A stretch of DNA of 64,000 bases from Candidatus Eiseniibacteriota bacterium (GCA_041946735.1 JBHGAY010000025.1:9249-73248); one strand, 5' to 3'. Counted from the first letter of the stretch, positions 11,332-48,274 are shown. Made by a program: numbers and translations. The notes: a model not told the origin generated them from the sequence alone.

Positions 11332-11808
11332 ATGAGAAGGTTGCTGCTGTCGTTCTCGATCTGTTTGCTCCTGTCCGGATGGGCGGGCGCCGCGCTGGCC
11401 TTGCCCGACTTCTACGAGGCGGCGTTGACGAGCGAGCAGGAAGTCCCACCGAACGACTCGCCCGGCTACGGCGTCTGCAGCATCACACTCGTCGACGAGA
11501 ACACGATCACCTTCCGCCTGGAGTTCGCCGATCTGACGAGCCAGGCGGTCGCGGCCCACATTCATCTCGGCTACGCCGGGCAGAACGGGCCGGTCCTCTA
11601 TCCTCTTTCGGAGGTGCCTTTCGATTCTCCGATCGAGGGGACGATCGACTTCGATCCGCAATACCTCGACGAGCTGGAGAGCCAGGGGCTCTACGTGAAC
11701 ATCCACACCGTGAACTATCCGAACGGGGAGATCCGCGGACAGATCTGCCACTTCCCGGTCGCAACCGAGGAGACGAGCTGGGGCAAGGTGCGCTCTCTCT
11801 ACCGCTGA
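11332..11808 (+). CDS. Secreted CHRD-domain protein with C-terminal SWG motif
   Basis: GGAGG RBS; signal peptide; QEVPP, AAHIH, LYVNIHTVNYPNGEIRGQI; ends PVATEETSWGKVRSLYR. Confidence 0.9.
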   Translation: MRRLLLSFSICLLLSGWAGAALALPDFYEAALTSEQEVPPNDSPGYGVCSITLVDENTITFRLEFADLTSQAVAAHIHLGYAGQNGPVLYPLSEVPFDSPIEGTIDFDPQYLDELESQGLYVNIHTVNYPNGEIRGQICHFPVATEETSWGKVRSLYR

Positions 11809-23431: not shown

Positions 23432-23648
23432 CTATCGGAACAGCATCTTCACTTGCCCCCAGGTCCGTTTCGCTACCGACACGGGCTCACTGCCCTCAAC
23501 GGCGATATCGACTCGCACGGTGTCGTAAACGAAGGAAATCGGATCGACCGCGCAGTCCACAACGTCTCCGGCCTGCACTAGGAAAGCGCTCGCGAACTCA
23601 GCGTGATCCCCGAGGCCGTCAAGCAATTGCGGGAACTCGTGCGCTCAT
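23432..23648 (-). pseudogene. Remnant of a gene ending in the SWG/TWG C-terminal motif
   Basis: AAGGAGG RBS and ATG at 23648 give MSARVPAIA-stop. A different frame encodes ...VQAGDVVDCAVDP...PVSVAKRTWGQVKMLFR-stop. Confidence 0.6.
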
Positions 23649-24066: not shown

Positions 24067-24140
24067 TGGCTGGGGAGCAGGGACTCGAACCCCGGTTCCA
24101 TGATCCAGAGTCATGTGTCCTACCACTGGACGACTCCCCA
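24067..24140 (-). tRNA. tRNA-Gln (CTG), CCA encoded
   Basis: TGGGGAGTCGTCCAGTGGTAGGACACATGACTCTGGATCATGGAACCGGGGTTCGAGTCCCTGCTCCCCAGCCA; anticodon arm CATGA-CT-CTG-GA-TCATG. Confidence 0.96.
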
Positions 24141-24326: not shown

Positions 24327-27300
24327 TCACCTCAGCAACACCAGCTTCTCCGTGCGGCTCGCGCTGCCCCCCTGCAGTCGGATCAAGTACACGCCCGAGC
24401 CGACGTCGCGGCCCTGGTCGTCTCGTCCGTCCCATACCTCTTCAGCCGCTCCGCCGGCGAACGAGCCCTGCCGAAGGATGCGCACGCGCCGTCCCTGCAG
24501 GTCGATGATCTCGAGCCGGAGCGAAGAGGCGCCCGGAGACTCGAAGCGGATTGCCGTCCTCGGATTGAAGGGATTCGGGATCGCGCCGATCAGCCGAAGC
24601 TCGAGCGCGCGAACGTTCACGTCGATCGTCGGACTGACCAGGATCTCGCGGTCGAAGCCGTCGAGACCGACGATGCGGTAGCTCTGCCGGCCCGGAGCGG
24701 CGGGATCGCGATACGAGTAGCTGCCATCCGATCCGAAGTCGCTCGCGACGCCCGAGGCGCGAAGCTCCCAGCCGCCCATCGCATCGCGGCGCTCGATCCG
24801 GAAGACCTCGACCGGCTCCTGGGTGCTCCAGATCAGCAGCGCCGCGCCTGCCTCTCCGGACGCCTCGGCCGCCAGCGTCCGGACCGGAGTGATCACCGCC
24901 GCGTCCTGCCTTCCCGTGTTGCGCGCGTCGTGGCGGAACGAGGGCCAGGGATTGGCCGCCATGGCCGCCGCCAGATCGGCCGGGAAGTTCACGTTGTCGA
25001 TATCGAGGATCGTCACCGCAGGCTGCTGCTCGGCCTGGATCAGGAGATTCGGGTGGCCGTCCCGGTCGACGTCCCAGGCGGCGAGCCCATGCTGGATGCG
25101 CCCGCCCGTGAAATACGGGAAGCCGATCATCATCGTGCCGTCGCCGTCCAGGGCGTAGACGACTCCTCCGTTGTCGCCGACGACGATCTCCGCCGCCAGG
25201 TCCGAATCGAGGTTCATCAGAATCGGAGAGCCGATCTTCGTGCTCGTGACAGGGGCTACCCGGACCGGGAACCCGGGGAGAACCGTCCCCTCCGTCGCGT
25301 CGATCGCGGTCACGCGCCCTTGCCCGACGCCGAGCGCGACGTCGAGGTCTCCGTCGCCGTCGATGTCCCCAAGAGCCGGCGTGGTCTCCGGCCATCGAGT
25401 CGGAAGCTGGTCGATCGGACGCTTGGGGAACTTCGCGATCAGCTGCTTCGAGCCCGGCTCATAGCCGAATCCCCAGAGATAGTTGCGCGTCGCCAGGTAG
25501 ATGTCGTACTGCAGGTCGTTGTCGACGTCGGCGATCGAGACCGAGCTGTTTTGCGCCTTGAAGTCCCCGACGAGGCCGCTCTCGAGCTGCTGGCTCGCTA
25601 GGACCGAGCCGTCGCCGTCGATGACATAGATGGCGGACGGACTCCCGGTCATATTCCGCTCGAGGCCGAGCACGATCTCTTCCCTGTCGTCTCCGTCCAG
25701 GTCGGCCACGGCCGGCGTCCCATAGGTCAGGGGCCAATCGTTCGGACCGGGCCACGTGCCCGGATCGGACGGGTTCCCGCTTCCGAGATAGACGAGCTTG
25801 CCGTCGCTATTGCTGCTCTTCACCGGCGTTCCGTCGTGATTCCACGCGAAGATGCATCCGCGGCTGTTCAAGACGATCTCGAACTGCGGATCGGAGTCGA
25901 TGTTCGCGATCACCGGCGAGGAGAGCATGTAGTTGCTGTACCCGGCGGCCTTCGACCACAACAACGTCCCGTCGTTGCGCCAGACGCGGATCTGCGCCGT
26001 CCCATGACCGCTGTCGTCGTAGCGCGAGACCGCGACGATCTCCATATTGCCGTCCCTGTCGATGTCCGCCACCGCCGGCTTGTTCCAGTAGGCGGGCACG
26101 CCCGGGGCCCAGATGCCGGGAGTAGAGACGACGTGATCGCCGTCCATCACCTCGAGACCATCCGCCTTCATCGCATAGACCGTCTGCCCCGCGATCACCA
26201 CTTCGAACGGGTTCCGCTCCCCTTCGCGGATCAAGTTCTCGACGGTCGGGCAGCCGAGCTGCGGCTCGACGATCGTGAAAGGCCACCCGGACAGCATGCC
26301 CGGGCTCGTCGTGGCTGCGACGACGTTCGAGAAGGCGCTCTGATTGCCGGACGAATCGACCGCCGCCACGCGGTAGTAGTAGCGCGAGAGGCCTGCCAGG
26401 CCGCCGTCGCGGTAGTACTCCATCCCGCGGACCAGGCCGGGCTGCGCCCTCTCGAAGTGGACCTGATCCTGCGAGCGTTCGAGCGCGTAGCCGTCCACGT
26501 CGCCTCCGGACGACTTGGTCCAGGTGAGCACGATCGCGTCCTTCGTCGCCTTCGGCTGCGCGGTGTCCGGGAAGCTCGGGGCCGATGGCGAGACGAAATC
26601 GACGGTCTTCGACAGGAACACGAAGGCGTCGTCCCGCTTCGAGCGCACCTCGAGCTTCATCTTCAGGATCGCCGCGTTCTGCACCTCGAACTGGAACGGA
26701 GGATTCGCGGTGACGAGGTCCCCCGCCTCGCCGTCGTCGACCGAGGAGGTGTCGTATCCGGCAACGATCGTCCCGCCCTGCACCGGCGTCAGAATCGCGC
26801 GCAGATCCCCCACGCTCCCGCTTCCGAGATCCCGCAGCACCGGGCGCCAGCTGATCCGCTCCCCGTTCTCCGGGATGCCGTCGCCGTCGCCGCTCACCTC
26901 CGAGCGCACGCTCCCCTCGACCCGGAAGACGGGTCTCAGGACGGGCAGCGCGAGACGGTAGGTGCGCGCCTGGCCGGCCTGCGGCGTGATCGTGATCCTC
27001 GCGACGAGCGGCACGCGGTCGCCGTTCTCGAGGAAGCTCTTCGGTACCGGCGAGGAGGAGCGGATCCGGAAGGCGGTGACCTGGTCGGTCGTGTTCGCCG
27101 CGACCGATCCCACATCCTCCGATGCGTCCTGGACCTCGAAGTACCCCGCCACTGATGGCGGCTCCAGCCCGAGGCTGAGGGTCAGAGGACCGGAGGCGCC
27201 GTTCCCGCCGTTGGCAAGCGAGACCCTCAAGCCGACCGTTTCCCCCTGATCGAAGACGCCGTCGCCGTTGCCCGCCGTCTGTCCTCCGGGCGAATCGTCG

Positions 27301-29531
27301 ATCGCGAGGGCGGTCGCAGCGACCGCCTCGCCCGACGGCTTCTCGACGTTGCGGGAGAAGGTGCCGGGGATCGACGTGAATCCGGTGGCGGTCACGATGA
27401 AGTTGCCGGTCGACGTCGCCTGGAACGGGACGACCGCCTGTCCATTGGCGTTCGTCGTCGCGATCGCGTAGGTGTCGTTCGGCTTGTACGCGCAGACCTG
27501 GACGTCCGGCACCCCCTGTCCGTTCCTGCGGACGTTGATCGTCAAGGAGGACTCGCCGAGCGTGTAACTGGTCTGCTGCGCGCTGACCTCGAGAGGCTTC
27601 GGCGTTCCGAGCCACATATGGATCTGAGGGTCCCCGAGCAGGATCAGGCTGTAGCTCAGGAAGCGCCGGTAGCTGTCGAAGCCGGTGTTGCCGGCCATCT
27701 GCTCCGCGATCGTGTGATAGTAGGCGTCGCCCAGATATGGCGCCTTGTCGTGGAAGATCTTTGTGTAGGTCGACTCCATGAAGCCGGTCGCGGCGGCAGG
27801 AAAGTCGAGGTTCGTGGAGCCGATGTAGCAGATGACTCCCCCGTTCTCGGCGAAGAGCAGCGCCTCGGCGACGCAGTCGTAGTCGATCGCCGCGGAGTTG
27901 CAGTTGATCGAGTAGAGCACGCCGATCTTGTCGCCGTTCGTGACGGCGCGCGCATCCGACGTCAGGAGGCGGCCCGCTCCGTCGAAGCCGTCGATCGTCC
28001 CGATCGACATGCGGTCTCGATCCCCATGGCCGACGTGGTGGATCAGCCCCATCCCTTCGTTGATCTTGTCGATGACCGACGACTTCGTCTCGGGTTGCGC
28101 GTTCGGGCGGCCGTTCTGGCGCCAGTACTCATACCACTCGTACAGCTCGACCTTCTCCAGAGGCGGCACGCGGCCCTCGTCGATCGCCTGGTCGATGATC
28201 CCGATCGTCCGGACCGCGTCCCCGGCGCCGTCGAGAGAGACGCAGGTGTCGCAGCCGCTCCCGCACGCCCCACAGCGGGGAAGGAGCGACCGCTTCCATT
28301 CCGCGTCGAAGAGCACCTCGCCGAGGAACAGCACTCGATCGAGATACCCCTGTGTATTGGGGCTCTTGATGTAGGTGTTGACGTACTTCTGCAGGAACTG
28401 CAGGAGCTGCGTCGCGTCGGAGGCCGGGATGCGGCCGACATACAGCTCCGCGTCGAAGTCGACGTCGTCCCCGATCGGATTCGGCGGATTCGAGCCTCGG
28501 ACCGGCTCTCCGAAGACCGCGTCGCCGTCGGCATTCCAGTTGCCGTCGAGGCAGGCGTAGTAGAGGTCGGTGATGATGTCGACACCGGCCGGGACATTCC
28601 ACGAGTAGGACTTCGCGAGCCGCATCGGAACCTGGGCCGGTCCGCCGGCGATCAGCACGTACTGGACTCCCCAGTACTGGTAGGCGGCCTGCAGGAAGTG
28701 ACGGATCCTCTCCTGGTCATCGACTCCGTTGGGATAGTTCTCCCGGATCCACTCGACCGTCCGGATGACGGTCGGAGTGCCGGACTGGTTCTTCCAGTCG
28801 GCGAGGAGCTGCACGGAGGGGGCCAGGGCCTCGGTCGTGATGATCAGGTACTCGACCGGCGCGCTCGACAGCGCCGGGAGATCGCTGACCGCCTCGCGGA
28901 GCGCCTGGCTTCTTCCTTCCCCCTGGAAGTCCCGGCGCCAGAGGTCCTCCGCGCCCGATCGCAGGACCTTCAGTGGACGCGGCGCGGTCGCGTCGCCCTC
29001 CAGATGGACGATCAGCCGGCCCGACTCGAGCAGGGACAGCTGTGCCCCCTCCTCGATGGCGACGACCGGGTAGACGGCGAAGTGGGCGAAGACCTGCCCG
29101 CGCCGCATGGAGGTCGACAGGTAGCGGACACGCGAGGCGGGATAGGAGCCGGAGGCGTACGCGTCGTCCCGCAGGGCGACCTGTCGCGGGCCCCCGTCGG
29201 GCGTCGGAGCGTCCTGGAGCGCCGTCGCGAGGATCCCCTGGGCCGGGCGCTCCGACGTCGAGGCGCCCGCCAGCTCCCAGGAGGCGACCTTCGTGCCGTC
29301 AGGGATCGGCACCCGCACCAGATGGGCCGGGAGGTCCGGCTCCCCGGGCTCCGCCAGATGGAGGAGGGCGTCACTCACGGTGCATTCGATCTCCCCGCTC
29401 GCGTCGGAGACGAGGGAGACCTGACCCCAGGACCAACCGAGGAGGACGTCCTCGGGGTCGGCCGCGCTCGCGGCCGCGGGGACGACCAGGGCAAGGAGCG
29501 GGATCAGCCAGAGAGCGTGTCGAGCGCGCAT
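24327..29531 (-). CDS. Large secreted C25 (gingipain-family) cysteine peptidase with propeptide, Ig/FN3 domains, FG-GAP repeats and FlgD/T9SS-like CTD
   Basis: ATG 29531 after GGAGG; signal peptide; EPGEPDLP propeptide; EYLIIT, TDLYYACLDGNWNADGD, VGRIP, HVGHG and SINC catalytic His/Cys, LLGDP; ADIDRDG/ADLDGD repeats; IPNPFNP...WDGRDDQGRDVGSGVYLIRL...KLVLLR. Confidence 0.9.
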   Translation of the reverse strand: MRARHALWLIPLLALVVPAAASAADPEDVLLGWSWGQVSLVSDASGEIECTVSDALLHLAEPGEPDLPAHLVRVPIPDGTKVASWELAGASTSERPAQGILATALQDAPTPDGGPRQVALRDDAYASGSYPASRVRYLSTSMRRGQVFAHFAVYPVVAIEEGAQLSLLESGRLIVHLEGDATAPRPLKVLRSGAEDLWRRDFQGEGRSQALREAVSDLPALSSAPVEYLIITTEALAPSVQLLADWKNQSGTPTVIRTVEWIRENYPNGVDDQERIRHFLQAAYQYWGVQYVLIAGGPAQVPMRLAKSYSWNVPAGVDIITDLYYACLDGNWNADGDAVFGEPVRGSNPPNPIGDDVDFDAELYVGRIPASDATQLLQFLQKYVNTYIKSPNTQGYLDRVLFLGEVLFDAEWKRSLLPRCGACGSGCDTCVSLDGAGDAVRTIGIIDQAIDEGRVPPLEKVELYEWYEYWRQNGRPNAQPETKSSVIDKINEGMGLIHHVGHGDRDRMSIGTIDGFDGAGRLLTSDARAVTNGDKIGVLYSINCNSAAIDYDCVAEALLFAENGGVICYIGSTNLDFPAAATGFMESTYTKIFHDKAPYLGDAYYHTIAEQMAGNTGFDSYRRFLSYSLILLGDPQIHMWLGTPKPLEVSAQQTSYTLGESSLTINVRRNGQGVPDVQVCAYKPNDTYAIATTNANGQAVVPFQATSTGNFIVTATGFTSIPGTFSRNVEKPSGEAVAATALAIDDSPGGQTAGNGDGVFDQGETVGLRVSLANGGNGASGPLTLSLGLEPPSVAGYFEVQDASEDVGSVAANTTDQVTAFRIRSSSPVPKSFLENGDRVPLVARITITPQAGQARTYRLALPVLRPVFRVEGSVRSEVSGDGDGIPENGERISWRPVLRDLGSGSVGDLRAILTPVQGGTIVAGYDTSSVDDGEAGDLVTANPPFQFEVQNAAILKMKLEVRSKRDDAFVFLSKTVDFVSPSAPSFPDTAQPKATKDAIVLTWTKSSGGDVDGYALERSQDQVHFERAQPGLVRGMEYYRDGGLAGLSRYYYRVAAVDSSGNQSAFSNVVAATTSPGMLSGWPFTIVEPQLGCPTVENLIREGERNPFEVVIAGQTVYAMKADGLEVMDGDHVVSTPGIWAPGVPAYWNKPAVADIDRDGNMEIVAVSRYDDSGHGTAQIRVWRNDGTLLWSKAAGYSNYMLSSPVIANIDSDPQFEIVLNSRGCIFAWNHDGTPVKSSNSDGKLVYLGSGNPSDPGTWPGPNDWPLTYGTPAVADLDGDDREEIVLGLERNMTGSPSAIYVIDGDGSVLASQQLESGLVGDFKAQNSSVSIADVDNDLQYDIYLATRNYLWGFGYEPGSKQLIAKFPKRPIDQLPTRWPETTPALGDIDGDGDLDVALGVGQGRVTAIDATEGTVLPGFPVRVAPVTSTKIGSPILMNLDSDLAAEIVVGDNGGVVYALDGDGTMMIGFPYFTGGRIQHGLAAWDVDRDGHPNLLIQAEQQPAVTILDIDNVNFPADLAAAMAANPWPSFRHDARNTGRQDAAVITPVRTLAAEASGEAGAALLIWSTQEPVEVFRIERRDAMGGWELRASGVASDFGSDGSYSYRDPAAPGRQSYRIVGLDGFDREILVSPTIDVNVRALELRLIGAIPNPFNPRTAIRFESPGASSLRLEIIDLQGRRVRILRQGSFAGGAAEEVWDGRDDQGRDVGSGVYLIRLQGGSASRTEKLVLLR

Positions 29532-29873
29532 CAGACCTCCTCGATGCCGATCCGCGACCGCTTCGGCGGGGCGGGCGGCCGGACGGAAACGCCGGAAATG
29601 CTGGAAAACCGCGGCCCGTGCGGCGCGGGACCGCGCGAACGGACTCGTGGGACCAAAGATGGGCATTTCACTCTGCGGCGGAGTCTAGCGGTGGCCCGAT
29701 GAGCAGTCAACGCGGCCGGCGCTGGTCGCGCGTCCCCTCGGGGCTCTGCGAGGTGCATTTTTCGCGGCTTTCGTGAAGAATCCTGTTGCCTGACTCTCGA
29801 AATGGGTGCTAGAGAAGGTGCGGCCTCGATCAGACGAGACCGAAGAAACGCGTACCAAGGAGGGATGGAAGCC

Positions 29874-47401: not shown

Positions 47402-48274
47402 CTAGCGGTAGGTCGCCCTGATTGCACCCCAACTTCGGATCTCCACGGCCACCGGAACGCACTCGTTGGGCATACAGTCGCTCCACGCGCCCTGCGGCAC
47501 ACCTCCCGAAGCGACGCATTCCATCTCGACCAGCTCCATGCAGCTCCCGTCCGCGAAGCAGCAGGCGAAGACCGGCGTGTTCGGGCAAGGATTGGGCTCA
47601 CACAGCGTCCCCGGACCTTCCCACGTCCACGAACCACCCGCCGCGTAGCACTCCAAGTAGCTCACGGCCCGGCAGACGCCGTCGAGAAAGCAGCACGCCC
47701 CGGGGACCGTTTCGCACCGATCCGGCTCGCACGCATGACCGTCGATCACACCGCCGTCGTTCAAGCATTCCTCGGGTAGCAGGTAGAGTTCGCACGAGCC
47801 GTCCTCGAAGCAGCAACCGACGAGCGAGCAGGAGCAGGGATTCGGGTCGCAGGGGACTCCCTCGGACCACGAGCAGTAGTCCGGGCGCGCCAGGCACTCC
47901 ACCTCCGTCTCGACGAAGCACTCGCCGGCGTCGAAACAGCAGGCGCCTTGCGGCGACGCGCAGAGATTCGGCTCGCAGAGGTTCTCCGCGGGAGCGCCAC
48001 CCAAGTCGTAACAATCCTCGCCGCAGTAGAAGACGCGGCAGGATCCATCCGGAAAGCAGCAGCCGACCGGCTGCGGGCACGGGTTGGGGTCTCAGTCGGC
48101 TCCAGGGTAGAAGGCGCAACCGCCGGTCGCCCAGCAATCCGCCTCCTCTACCATTTGGCACGATCCGTCCGGGTAACAGCAGATGCCCACCTCGGCCTTC
48201 GCAACACCGGCAACGGCACCGGCCAGCACGATGGCCGACACGACAGCGACACCGACGATCGTCACTCGATACAT
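47402..48274 (-). CDS. Secreted Cys-rich repeat protein (six GxCC..DGxC repeats) with in-frame UGA at codon 61 and C-terminal SWG motif
   Basis: ORFs 48092..48274 and 47402..48004 share a frame, joined by TGA(48094-48092)-DPNPCPQPVGCCFPDGSC. The TGA sits at the Cys of the C[DE]PNxC repeat motif. Ends PVAVEIRSWGAIRATYR. Confidence 0.75.
48059..48074 (-). promoter_or_regulatory. Candidate SECIS hairpin
   Basis: GCAGCC-GGUC-GGCUGC; stem starts 17 nt after the UGA; GGUC loop resembles the E. coli fdhF SECIS loop. Confidence 0.45.

What the first reader, a model, noticed from the sequence alone, without database searches (positions are those of the whole stretch)
11755..11808. Shared 17-aa C-terminal motif on unrelated proteins: candidate undescribed protein-sorting signal
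Seen: three unrelated ORFs end in a gapless motif directly before the stop. CHRD protein: PVATEETSWGKVRSLYR (11755-11808, +). Gene remnant: PVSVAKRTWGQVKMLFR (23432-23485, -). Cys-rich protein: PVAVEIRSWGAIRATYR (47402-47455, -). Consensus PV[AS][TV]xxx[ST]WGx[VI][RK]xx[YF]R. Both intact carriers have signal peptides, and no cytoplasmic protein here has the motif. It has no TM helix, so it is not LPXTG, PEP-CTERM or GlyGly-CTERM. It looks like a short amphipathic helix after a PV linker similar to those preceding the T9SS-like CTDs (ITPV, GVGEPV). Inference: a compact export/anchoring tag for a dedicated or T9SS-derived pathway.
Basis: partly seen in the sequence, partly recalled or inferred. 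Interest (0 to 1): 0.88.

Follow-up and report, generated by a model that had tools for sequence, protein, structure and literature searches.

The report
Undescribed short C-terminal protein-sorting tag
About eighty unrelated exported proteins of this uncultured soil bacterium, and thousands in related phyla, end in the same roughly 20-residue peptide, which behaves like a protein address label that no database or paper describes and whose reader is still unknown.

Summary
Confirmed and much extended. The three motifs sit at the stated coordinates, each directly before a stop codon. In the whole 4.9-Mb genome, WGx2[RK]x2[YFW][RK] occurs 84 times in six frames. Of these, 72 lie directly before a stop and 5 more within 4 residues of one. 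With 4 variants found by paralogy there are about 81 carriers. They fall into at least 31 unrelated passenger families and are mostly small proteins (median 252 aa) with signal peptides.

The strict DNA form is in 196 of 206 genomes of the phylum (Eisenbacteria, by relatives' names). Five of the apparent "negatives" were tested, and at least four hold drifted variants. It is also in 146 of 151 sampled genomes of a second phylum, and in at least 1,234 protein clusters in public data.

No Pfam, NCBIfam, PDB or paper match was found. The same passenger families alternate between this tag and the type IX secretion (T9SS) FlgD-type C-terminal domain (CTD). It is an undescribed, portable, sorting-type tag. 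Its reader remains unknown; a T9SS-linked route is my leading but unproven candidate.

This scan has noted the same tag before, on other DNA and on another piece of this genome.

The parts
11332..11808 (+). CHRD-domain carrier gene (158 aa from the ATG at 11332; stop 11806-11808). Signal peptide MRRLLLSFSICLLLSGWAGAALA, then the CHRD domain, then the tag.
   Evidence: ORF. (PF07452, residues 36-145 of the 165-aa ORF). (P0001, 158 aa, is the database's call of this gene). (CHRD fold pLDDT about 98, tail 57-77).
11755..11805 (+). Tag copy 1: PVATEETSWGKVRSLYR, directly before the stop.
   Evidence: It lies after the point (GEIRGQI plus at most 5 residues) where most CHRD homologues end.
23432..23626 (-). 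Short ORF (64-70 aa, no signal peptide) ending in tag copy 2, PVSVAKRTWGQVKMLFR (23435-23485). Probably the 3' remnant of a lectin-like carrier. It lies between a ScdA/hemerythrin gene and tRNA-Gln (24067-24140).
47402..48091 (-). Cys-rich carrier, main ORF (229 aa stop-to-stop). It holds five repeats of a CCxxDGSC...C[ED]PNPC module and ends in tag copy 3, PVAVEIRSWGAIRATYR (47405-47455).
   Evidence: No Pfam or NCBIfam hit. Paralogues C19+54228 and C8+9072 carry a FlgD-type CTD instead.
48092..48094 (-). In-frame TGA between the signal-peptide part and the main ORF of the Cys-rich carrier. It sits exactly where the repeat motif C-[ED]-P-N-P-C expects Cys.
   Evidence: The genome has a tRNA-SeC. 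Downstream folding is not significant.
48095..48274 (-). N-terminal piece of the Cys-rich carrier, with a signal peptide (MYRVTIVGVAVVSAIVLAGAVAGVAKA) and the first Cys-rich repeat.
24327..29666 (-). Context: a 1779-aa Peptidase_C25 + FG-GAP protein ending in a FlgD_ig-type T9SS CTD. It is an example of the alternative C-terminal signal used in the same genome.

Best explanation
The peptide (NPC)xP[VT]A[TV][EQ]xx[ST]W[GS]x[IVL][KR]x[LM][YF]R-COOH is a portable C-terminal sorting or secretion tag. It is added to proteins that have already crossed the inner membrane through Sec. The core [ST]W[GS]x[IVL]K lies 4 to about 9 residues from the C-terminus.

Shown:
- It is strictly terminal, and selection acts on the peptide rather than the DNA.
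- It sits on at least 31 unrelated passenger families, mostly with signal peptides.
- It stands where paralogues carry the FlgD-type T9SS C-terminal domain, and where distant CHRD homologues carry TM-type anchors.
- It spans at least two phyla.

Inferred: a conserved envelope component recognises the tag and uses it to move the protein across, or fix it at, the outer membrane.

My most likely mechanism, at about 0.4, is a T9SS-linked route. In this reading the tag is a short alternative to the roughly 80-residue CTD for small cargo. It would be read by a lineage-specific adaptor or shuttle, for example one of the several PorV/PorQ-like barrels or a CTD-bearing carrier, and not by the fold-recognition used for type A CTDs. 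That it is a targeting tag of some kind I hold at about 0.8.
For: Terminal position:
- 72 of 84 hits lie directly before a stop in this genome.
- In 124 of the 150 best hits from public data, exactly 4 residues follow the [KR]; in 144 of 150, at most 9.

Selection on the peptide:
- Synonymous codons at the invariant Gly and Arg mostly follow genome usage.
- Conservation stops at the stop codon, with at most 0.33 bit per base downstream.

Exported carriers:
- Signal peptides in 43 of 70 carriers against 323 of 2464 controls, and 66 of 78 against 440 of 1100 by a looser rule.
- Pfam hits are extracytoplasmic types: Beta_helix, PPC, CHRD, cupredoxin, LTD (23 of 77 carriers with any hit).

Portability: 31 passenger clusters.

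Alternation with the T9SS CTD on paralogues:
- CHRD: L035 against C5+46929.
- Beta-helix: L056 against C32+25674. Homology ends at residue 378 of 394, just before the tag.
- Cys-rich: L036 against C19+54228.
- Cupredoxin: L024 against C12-74265.

Alternation with TM anchors: CHRD homologues P0093 and P0029 carry TM-type anchors at the same place.

T9SS parts in this genome:
- SprA at 356 bits.
- PorU at 596 bits, above its cut-off.
- A PorV family protein.
- At least 150 FlgD_ig matches.

Co-occurrence:
- SprA over its cut-off was found in 7 of the 8 tag-rich genomes tested one by one. The eighth, G360, has 8 PorV-like matches.
- SprA matches were found in 151 of 151 sampled genomes of the second phylum.
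- The two genomes with a single, chance-level hit (G358, G359) have neither SprA over its cut-off nor PorV.

Both signals in this genome end in hydrophobic-hydrophobic-Arg.
Against: - No experiment exists, and no reader was identified.
- T9SS type A CTDs are folded Ig-like domains. Their conserved motifs specify the fold rather than contacts (PMC10994853, passage read). A 20-residue peptide cannot be read in that way.
- The P[VT]A[TV] motif is absent in front of CTDs (2 of 157), so the tag does not look like a truncated CTD.
- Co-occurrence with T9SS is weak evidence, because every genome of these phyla that I tested has T9SS parts, with or without many tags.
- SprA was not found in tag-rich G360, whose completeness is unknown.
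- I found no conserved gene next to tag genes.
Confidence: 0.4

Rival explanations
1. The tag is the signal of a dedicated sorting system of its own, independent of T9SS. A sortase-, exosortase- or PorU-like transpeptidase would cut at or near P[VT]A[TV]. The short W...[YF]R segment would hold the C-terminus at a membrane surface, in place of the TM helix plus basic cluster of classical tripartite signals.
For: - Layout is a conserved signature (P 56/78, A 59/78), then a 3-4-residue spacer, then a hydrophobic/basic end.
- It stands where PEP-CTERM- or IPTL-like anchors stand in CHRD homologues.
- Passengers include families that NCBIfam ties to alternative anchors: spondin NF038123 twice, and choice-of-anchor R weakly.
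- The P[VT]A[TV] motif is tag-specific.
- The tag is confined to a few phyla, although T9SS is, to my recollection, wider.
Against: - There is no TM helix.
- I looked for no exosortase or sortase gene (not tested).
- No recurrent neighbour appears beside tag genes in G000 or in the tag-gene arrays of G210.
- No clean tag-negative relatives exist to profile against.
Confidence: 0.25
2. The tag is an unprocessed, non-covalent anchor. A short amphipathic helix or strand would stick the exported protein to a membrane leaflet, to lipopolysaccharide, or to a surface receptor by strand addition. No dedicated translocation step would be involved.
For: - AF2 on the tail alignment predicts a helix over WGKVRSL with pLDDT about 92.
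- The hydrophobic moment is 0.72-0.76 at strand periodicity and 0.52 at helix periodicity, against 0.42-0.43 for shuffled tails.
- Trp, Tyr/Phe and Lys/Arg are, to my recollection, typical interface residues.
- The tail is not part of the CHRD fold.
Against: - Lipid-binding helices rarely keep an invariant W-G and a fixed register to the C-terminus across phyla.
- The conserved P[VT]A[TV] part has no role in this model.
- It does not explain the alternation with a secretion domain.
Confidence: 0.2
3. The tag is a C-terminal degradation, quality-control or pro-peptide signal, read by a periplasmic PDZ protease or chaperone.
For: The position is strictly C-terminal. PDZ proteins read C-termini (recalled, not tested).
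Against: - The last residues drift (…LLQ, …LTGH, …FRDGR) while the inner core stays. This is opposite to what carboxylate-end recognition predicts.
- About 80 stable gene families per genome keep it.
- It swaps with secretion and anchor modules.
Confidence: 0.05
4. There is no signal at all. The shared end would be a piece of one inherited domain or a DNA-level repeat.
For: - 37 of 77 carriers form one BLAST cluster, linked by a Cys-rich module and a shared N-terminal part.
- An excess of TAG stops (49 of 77 against 36% genome-wide) hints at some shared descent of the cassette.
Against: - 30 further clusters (40 proteins) share nothing but the tag.
- Synonymous sites vary as in the rest of the genome, and conservation ends at the stop.
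- The Pfam domains are of different folds.
Confidence: 0.02

Closest known systems
T9SS type A C-terminal domain (TIGR04183 / PF18962; here the FlgD_ig-like PF13860 form)
   Same: Both sit at the extreme C-terminus of Sec-exported, otherwise unrelated proteins. Both are very numerous in the same genomes (about 81 tags and about 157 CTD genes here). They are interchangeable on paralogous passengers. In this genome both end in hydrophobic-hydrophobic-Arg, with a basic residue a few positions earlier.
   Different: The tag is about 20 residues, against about 80. It cannot form the Ig-like sandwich that the translocon and PorV recognise (PMC10994853). There is no HMM match. It has its own P[VT]A[TV] and [ST]WG motifs, which are absent from CTDs. 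Its carriers are much smaller (median 252 against 793 aa).
Tripartite C-terminal sorting signals: PEP-CTERM/exosortase, IPTL-CTERM, MYXO-CTERM, GlyGly-CTERM/rhombosortase, LPXTG/sortase (features recalled; NCBIfam models searched)
   Same: Both are short and portable and sit on many unrelated exported proteins per genome. Both have a signature motif followed by a more hydrophobic stretch and a basic end. The tag occupies the same place as such anchors in CHRD homologues P0093 and P0029.
   Different: The tag has no membrane-spanning helix, only 9 residues with a Lys/Arg in the middle. No NCBIfam model matches (0 of 77 whole proteins, 0 of 73 tails). No cognate enzyme is known.
C-terminal amphipathic membrane anchors of periplasmic enzymes such as PBP5/PBP6 (recalled)
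   Same: Both are short C-terminal segments without a TM helix on Sec-exported proteins. AF2 predicts a short helix for the isolated tail.
   Different: Such anchors are not, to my recollection, conserved as a sequence motif across families and phyla. Here W is invariant and G nearly so, and the register to the C-terminus is fixed.
Outer-membrane-protein beta-signal read by BAM (recalled)
   Same: Both have a polar-x-Gly start and an aromatic residue near the C-terminus, with strand-like amphipathicity.
   Different: The last residue is Arg, not aromatic. Passengers are soluble folds (CHRD, beta-helix, cupredoxin), not barrels.

Membership tests
T9SS type A / FlgD_ig C-terminal domain | Match to PF18962, PF13860 or TIGR04183 over the C-terminal region | tested here: not met
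   No listed Pfam stretch covers the tag in any of 77 carriers. The 73 tails alone gave only two chance hits, at E 0.14 and 0.19. NCBIfam gave nothing on the tag.
T9SS type A / FlgD_ig C-terminal domain | A 70-100-residue Ig-like beta-sandwich fold | tested here: not met
   The conserved part is about 20 residues. AF2 gives a 7-residue helix for the tail alone, or a low-confidence hairpin in the full-length model.
T9SS type A / FlgD_ig C-terminal domain | C-terminal position on signal-peptide proteins, in a genome that has the T9SS core | tested here: met
   (position and signal peptides). (SprA, PorV family, PorU).
T9SS type A / FlgD_ig C-terminal domain | T9SS-dependent secretion and removal of the signal by PorU | not testable with these tools
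   This needs genetics or proteomics in an uncultured lineage.
PEP-CTERM / exosortase-type and other tripartite signals | Signature motif followed by a TM helix and an Arg/Lys cluster | tested here: not met
   Only 9 residues follow the spacer, and they include an invariant Lys/Arg. Their mean hydrophobicity is negative.
PEP-CTERM / exosortase-type and other tripartite signals | Match to an NCBIfam sorting-signal model | tested here: not met
   0 of 77 whole proteins and 0 of 73 tails.
PEP-CTERM / exosortase-type and other tripartite signals | Cognate exosortase, rhombosortase or sortase gene in the genome | not tested
   No search was made for PF09721, TIGR03902 or PF04203.
BAM beta-signal | Aromatic residue as the very last residue of a beta-barrel protein | tested here: not met
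   The last residue is Arg in all 78 aligned regex hits, including one later dropped as spurious. The aromatic residue is penultimate. Passengers are soluble folds.
C-terminal amphipathic helix anchor (PBP5-like) | Amphipathic helix at the extreme C-terminus | tested here: inconclusive
   A helix is predicted for the isolated tail. However, the moment is larger at strand periodicity, and the full-length model shows a low-confidence hairpin.

The most novel reading that the evidence does not exclude
This would be a new class of protein-sorting signal in diderm bacteria: a linear tag of about 20 residues, without a TM helix, read by a component nobody has described. That component could be a new outer-membrane export or attachment pathway, or a previously unknown peptide-reading adaptor branch of type IX secretion. 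Such a system would handle a large share of the secretome of at least two uncultured soil and sediment phyla.
Probability: 0.5. Interest if true: 0.85.

Novelty: new variant of a known kind. Interest (0 to 1): 0.66.

Why it matters
C-terminal sorting signals (LPXTG, PEP-CTERM, T9SS CTDs) each led to a dedicated machine once they were recognised. This tag marks about 80 proteins per genome and at least 1,234 protein clusters in public data, yet it is invisible to Pfam and NCBIfam. The secretomes of Eisenbacteria and Krumholzibacteriota/Latescibacteria-titled genomes are therefore mis-described at present.

A model for the tag would improve annotation at once. The tag also gives a handle for finding its reader. 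If it proves to be a linear T9SS-linked signal, it would give a 20-residue export tag where only 80-100-residue domains are known.

Tried and rejected
1. Phylogenetic profiling inside the phylum.
- I took family f18, G020 and G055 as tag-negative from the strict DNA pattern.
- The profile search and the fetched ends show they carry drifted variants: TWS[ST]IKALY[RK], TTWSxIKxL.., and TTWGxIKR.. plus extra residues.
- So there is no clean negative set, and the approach was dropped.

- It was found in all four 'negative' genomes and not found in tag-rich G089 with this query.
The test itself is weakened by point 1.

3. Recurrent neighbours of the carriers in G000.
- These were only CTD proteins, two-component regulators, ABC ATPases and aminotransferases, at roughly chance frequency.
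- Flanks of tandem tag-gene arrays in G210 hold unrelated genes: an AglB-like transferase, an ABC-2 transporter and housekeeping genes.

4. Complex prediction of the PorV homologue (A2, residues 27-324) with the tail alignment A1 gave no verdict. It is not counted either way.

5. The PDB sequence search with the tail profile gave 0 hits at E up to 10.

6. Paper searches found nothing relevant. I searched:
- Eisenbacteria + C-terminal + sorting.
- Six motif strings.
- Eisenbacteria + type IX secretion.
- Five '-CTERM' names.

Subscription journals and supplements were not covered.

7. Similarity of the tag end to the CTD end is significant, but it rests mainly on the terminal Arg and hydrophobic residues. 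I treat it as a hint only.

8. A SECIS-like fold after the in-frame TGA was not significant (z 0.68).

Full report
**Observation**

Translating the three stated stretches gives PVATEETSWGKVRSLYR, PVSVAKRTWGQVKMLFR and PVAVEIRSWGAIRATYR. Each is followed at once by a stop. The finding's coordinates include the stop codon.
- The first belongs to a 158-165-aa CHRD-domain protein with a classical signal peptide.
- The second ends a 64-70-aa ORF without a signal peptide. It matches other carriers only over the tag and about 65 residues of a lectin-like family, so 'remnant' is reasonable.
- The third ends a Cys-rich protein whose stop-to-stop ORF lacks a signal peptide. Directly upstream, in the same frame and separated by one TGA (48092-48094), lies a piece that has one.

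**Is it more than chance?**

The window lies in a 4.89-Mb assembly of 72 contigs with 68% G+C.
- In all six frames, WGx2[RK]x2[YFW][RK] occurs 84 times. Of these, 72 lie directly before a stop and 5 more lie 1-4 residues from one. The 7 internal hits sit in Arg-rich junk frames.
- After I dropped one spurious regex hit, 77 carriers remain. Four more with slightly different ends turned up as paralogues, giving about 81.
- The aligned logo is (NPC)xP[VT]A[TV][EQR]xx[ST]WGx[VIL][KR][AGS][LTM][YF]R. W is in 78/78, G in 76/78, [ST] before W in 75/78, A in 59/78 and P in 56/78. This count still includes the hit that was dropped later.
- Synonymous codons at the invariant Gly follow genome usage. Those at the terminal Arg do so except for more CGA (17 of 73 against 9% genome-wide).
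- Nothing is conserved beyond the stop codon. Selection therefore acts on the peptide.

**Who carries it**
- By a strict signal-peptide heuristic, 43 of 70 full-length carriers score positive against 323 of 2464 other ORFs (odds ratio 10.6). By a looser rule the figures are 66 of 78 against 440 of 1100. Both are home-made heuristics, not SignalP.
- Pfam finds domains in 23 of 77 carriers: Beta_helix in 5, PPC in 4, CHRD in 3, DUF7901 in 2, DUF4082 in 2, plus cupredoxin, LTD and others. All are of extracytoplasmic type, and none of the listed stretches covers the tag.
- Without their last 22 residues the carriers fall into 31 BLAST clusters. One cluster of 37 is linked by a Cys-rich module and a shared N-terminal part. 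The other 30 clusters (40 proteins) share nothing else.
- Carriers are small: median 252 aa, against 793 aa for the roughly 157 genes ending in a FlgD-type T9SS domain.

**Is it known?**
- NCBIfam gives no model on the tag: 0 of 77 whole proteins at E up to 0.1, and 0 of 73 tails at E up to 10.
- Pfam gives two chance hits among 73 tails.
- The PDB sequence search gives none.
- Four paper searches found nothing relevant. One motif string hit an unrelated Zika protease paper.
I used them as leads only.

**Distribution**
- A DNA pattern for WGx[VIL][KR]xx[YF]R-stop hits 196 of 206 genomes of the window's phylum. Typical counts are 10-50 per genome, against 0-2 for the reversed pattern. This genome has 71 hits against 1. 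The tally includes one unpublished genome, G072; without it the figure is 195 of 205.
- The phylum is probably Eisenbacteria, judging from the names of the closest PorV homologues and the titles of pattern hits.
- The apparently negative genomes are not negative.
  - The tail profile finds 57 matches in G055, 13 in G020, 8 in G174, 4 in G171 and 3 in G189 (E up to 1).
  - The fetched ends read ...TWSSIKALYR/K (G020)...TTWSxIKxL.. with free ends (G055) and ...TTWGKIKR[LI][YF]xxx (family f18).
  - The CHRD homologue of G055 ends ...SVSWSRIKNLLQ.
- So the conserved core is [ST]W[GS]x[IVL]K close to the C-terminus, and the final YR is a lineage habit.
The 80 listed split by title as follows:
  - 27 Eisenbacteria;
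  - 13 Krumholzibacteria;
  - 4 Latescibacteria;
  - 4 'uncultured Fibrobacteraceae';
  - 28 unnamed bacteria;
  - one each of UBP1, Neomarinimicrobiota, Actinobacteria RBG_16_64_13 and Limnocylindria.
- Follow-up of those hits:
  - Five of the genomes hold 14-75 hits each, with controls at 0.
  - The genomes titled Neomarinimicrobiota and Actinobacteria hold one hit each, which is chance level.
  - The 'Limnocylindria'-titled genome holds 33.
- In the GTDB phylum that holds the Latescibacteria-, Krumholzibacteriota-, Fibrobacteraceae- and UBP1-titled genomes, 146 of 151 sampled genomes have hits.
- Against 1.84 billion cluster representatives, the 30-position tail profile finds 1,234 proteins at E up to 0.001. 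In the best 150, the core is followed by exactly four residues in 124 and by at most nine in 144. Of the 100 that are full-length, 76 look signal-peptide-bearing by a crude rule.

**Relation to type IX secretion**
- This genome has SprA (356 bits), PorU (596 bits, over its cut-off), a conserved PorV-family barrel plus several PorV/PorQ-like paralogues, and at least 150 FlgD_ig matches.
- Paralogous passengers carry either the tag or the CTD. This holds for CHRD, beta-helix, the Cys-rich repeats, cupredoxin and others. In the beta-helix pair, homology stops just before the tag.
- In the wider database the CHRD domain normally ends at GEIRGQI plus a few residues. Two of 120 homologues add the tag, and two others add TM-type anchors at the same point.
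- SprA over its cut-off was found in 7 of the 8 tag-rich genomes tested one by one. A match was found in 151 of 151 sampled genomes of the second phylum (147 over the cut-off). The exception, G360, has 8 PorV-like matches and unknown completeness.
- This fits a T9SS-linked tag, but it is weak evidence, because T9SS parts are universal in these phyla.
- Three points argue against a simple 'mini-CTD':
  - Type A CTD motifs specify a fold, and recognition is of the folded domain (PMC10994853, passages only).
  - The P[VT]A[TV] motif is found before 2 of 157 CTDs, against 34 of 77 tags.
  - No HMM similarity exists.
- Work on F. johnsoniae shows that different CTD types use specialised shuttle barrels (PMC12618676, abstract only). 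That makes a further, peptide-reading shuttle conceivable.

**Shape of the tag**

AF2 on the tail alignment predicts a helix over W...L with pLDDT about 92. In the full-length CHRD model the domain is very confident, but the tail is a low-confidence hairpin with pLDDT 57-77. The hydrophobic moment of the W...R nonamer is 0.72-0.76 at 170-180 degrees and 0.52 at 100 degrees, against 0.42-0.43 for shuffled tails. The conformation is open. The tail is an appended, flexible piece, not part of the passenger fold.

This failed. Neighbours of tag genes show no specific recurrent family. The window's own neighbours are housekeeping genes.

**Verdict**

The tag is portable, strictly C-terminal and without a TM helix. 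It sits on exported proteins, is undescribed in the libraries and papers I could search, spans at least two phyla, and alternates with T9SS CTDs. I hold 'targeting tag' at about 0.8. Within that, I give a T9SS-linked route about 0.4, a dedicated processing system about 0.25, and an unprocessed anchor about 0.2.

Noticed in passing
window 48092-48094 (-), with 48095-48274 and 47402-48091: The Cys-rich carrier is split by one in-frame TGA, exactly where its repeat motif C-[ED]-P-N-P-C expects Cys. The genome has a tRNA-SeC (anticodon TCA). The TGA could encode selenocysteine, or be a TGC/TGT-to-TGA nonsense change, or be a sequencing error. A small hairpin lies 18 nt downstream, but the overall fold is not significant.
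   Followed up: partly
genome-wide; window examples at 11806-11808, 23432-23434 and 47402-47404: Tag genes end in TAG far more often than other genes. The figures are 49 of 77, against 759 of 2092 long ORFs, 166 of 502 ORFs ending in Arg, and 53 of 133 CTD genes (Fisher p 2e-6). TAG also dominates the listed hits in relatives. This is unexplained.
   Followed up: partly
window 47402-48274 (-); also 19 of 77 carriers and CTD proteins G000:C19 (593-aa ORF) and C8 (849-aa ORF): A repeated Cys-rich module of about 45 residues (CCFxDGSC...C...GG...C[ED]PNPC), with 55 copies in 19 carriers, has no Pfam or NCBIfam match. It often sits directly before the tag, which explains the frequent 'NPC' in the logo.
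   Followed up: partly
window 24327-29666 (-): A 1779-aa Peptidase_C25 + FG-GAP protein ends in a FlgD_ig CTD. It is one of about eight C25-like paralogues besides the true PorU at G000:C10:77116-80520.
   Followed up: partly
G000:C12:138367-142552 (L191) and G000:C7:10677-11300 (L015): An outer-membrane barrel is followed by two paralogous lipoproteins and then by SecD/SecF-like genes (not scanned against a family library). The second lipoprotein has a 48.5%-identical paralogue elsewhere (L015) that carries the tag. The lipoproteins themselves end in ...WKIVRWVD... rather than the tag.
   Followed up: partly
L195 (G210:C6:9861-14863) and L195:6214-8733: Seven tag genes of about 200-260 aa stand in tandem in another genome. 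Close by is an AglB-like oligosaccharyltransferase homologue (PF18079/PF22627). Further arrays of three or four tag genes are in L197 and L200.
   Followed up: partly
G000:C1 around 146491-146987 (L006 and the ORF upstream): A 59-aa tag-bearing ORF follows a 124-aa ORF that matches the N-terminal part of other carriers. This is probably a frameshifted carrier gene or an assembly error.
   Followed up: no
G360 (record titled Candidatus Limnocylindria) and P0241 (titled Limnocylindrales): A genome titled as a Chloroflexota class holds 33 tags and 8 PorV-like matches. A protein with a like title is 54% identical to this genome's PorV. The titles probably mislabel Eisenbacteria-like bins.
   Followed up: partly
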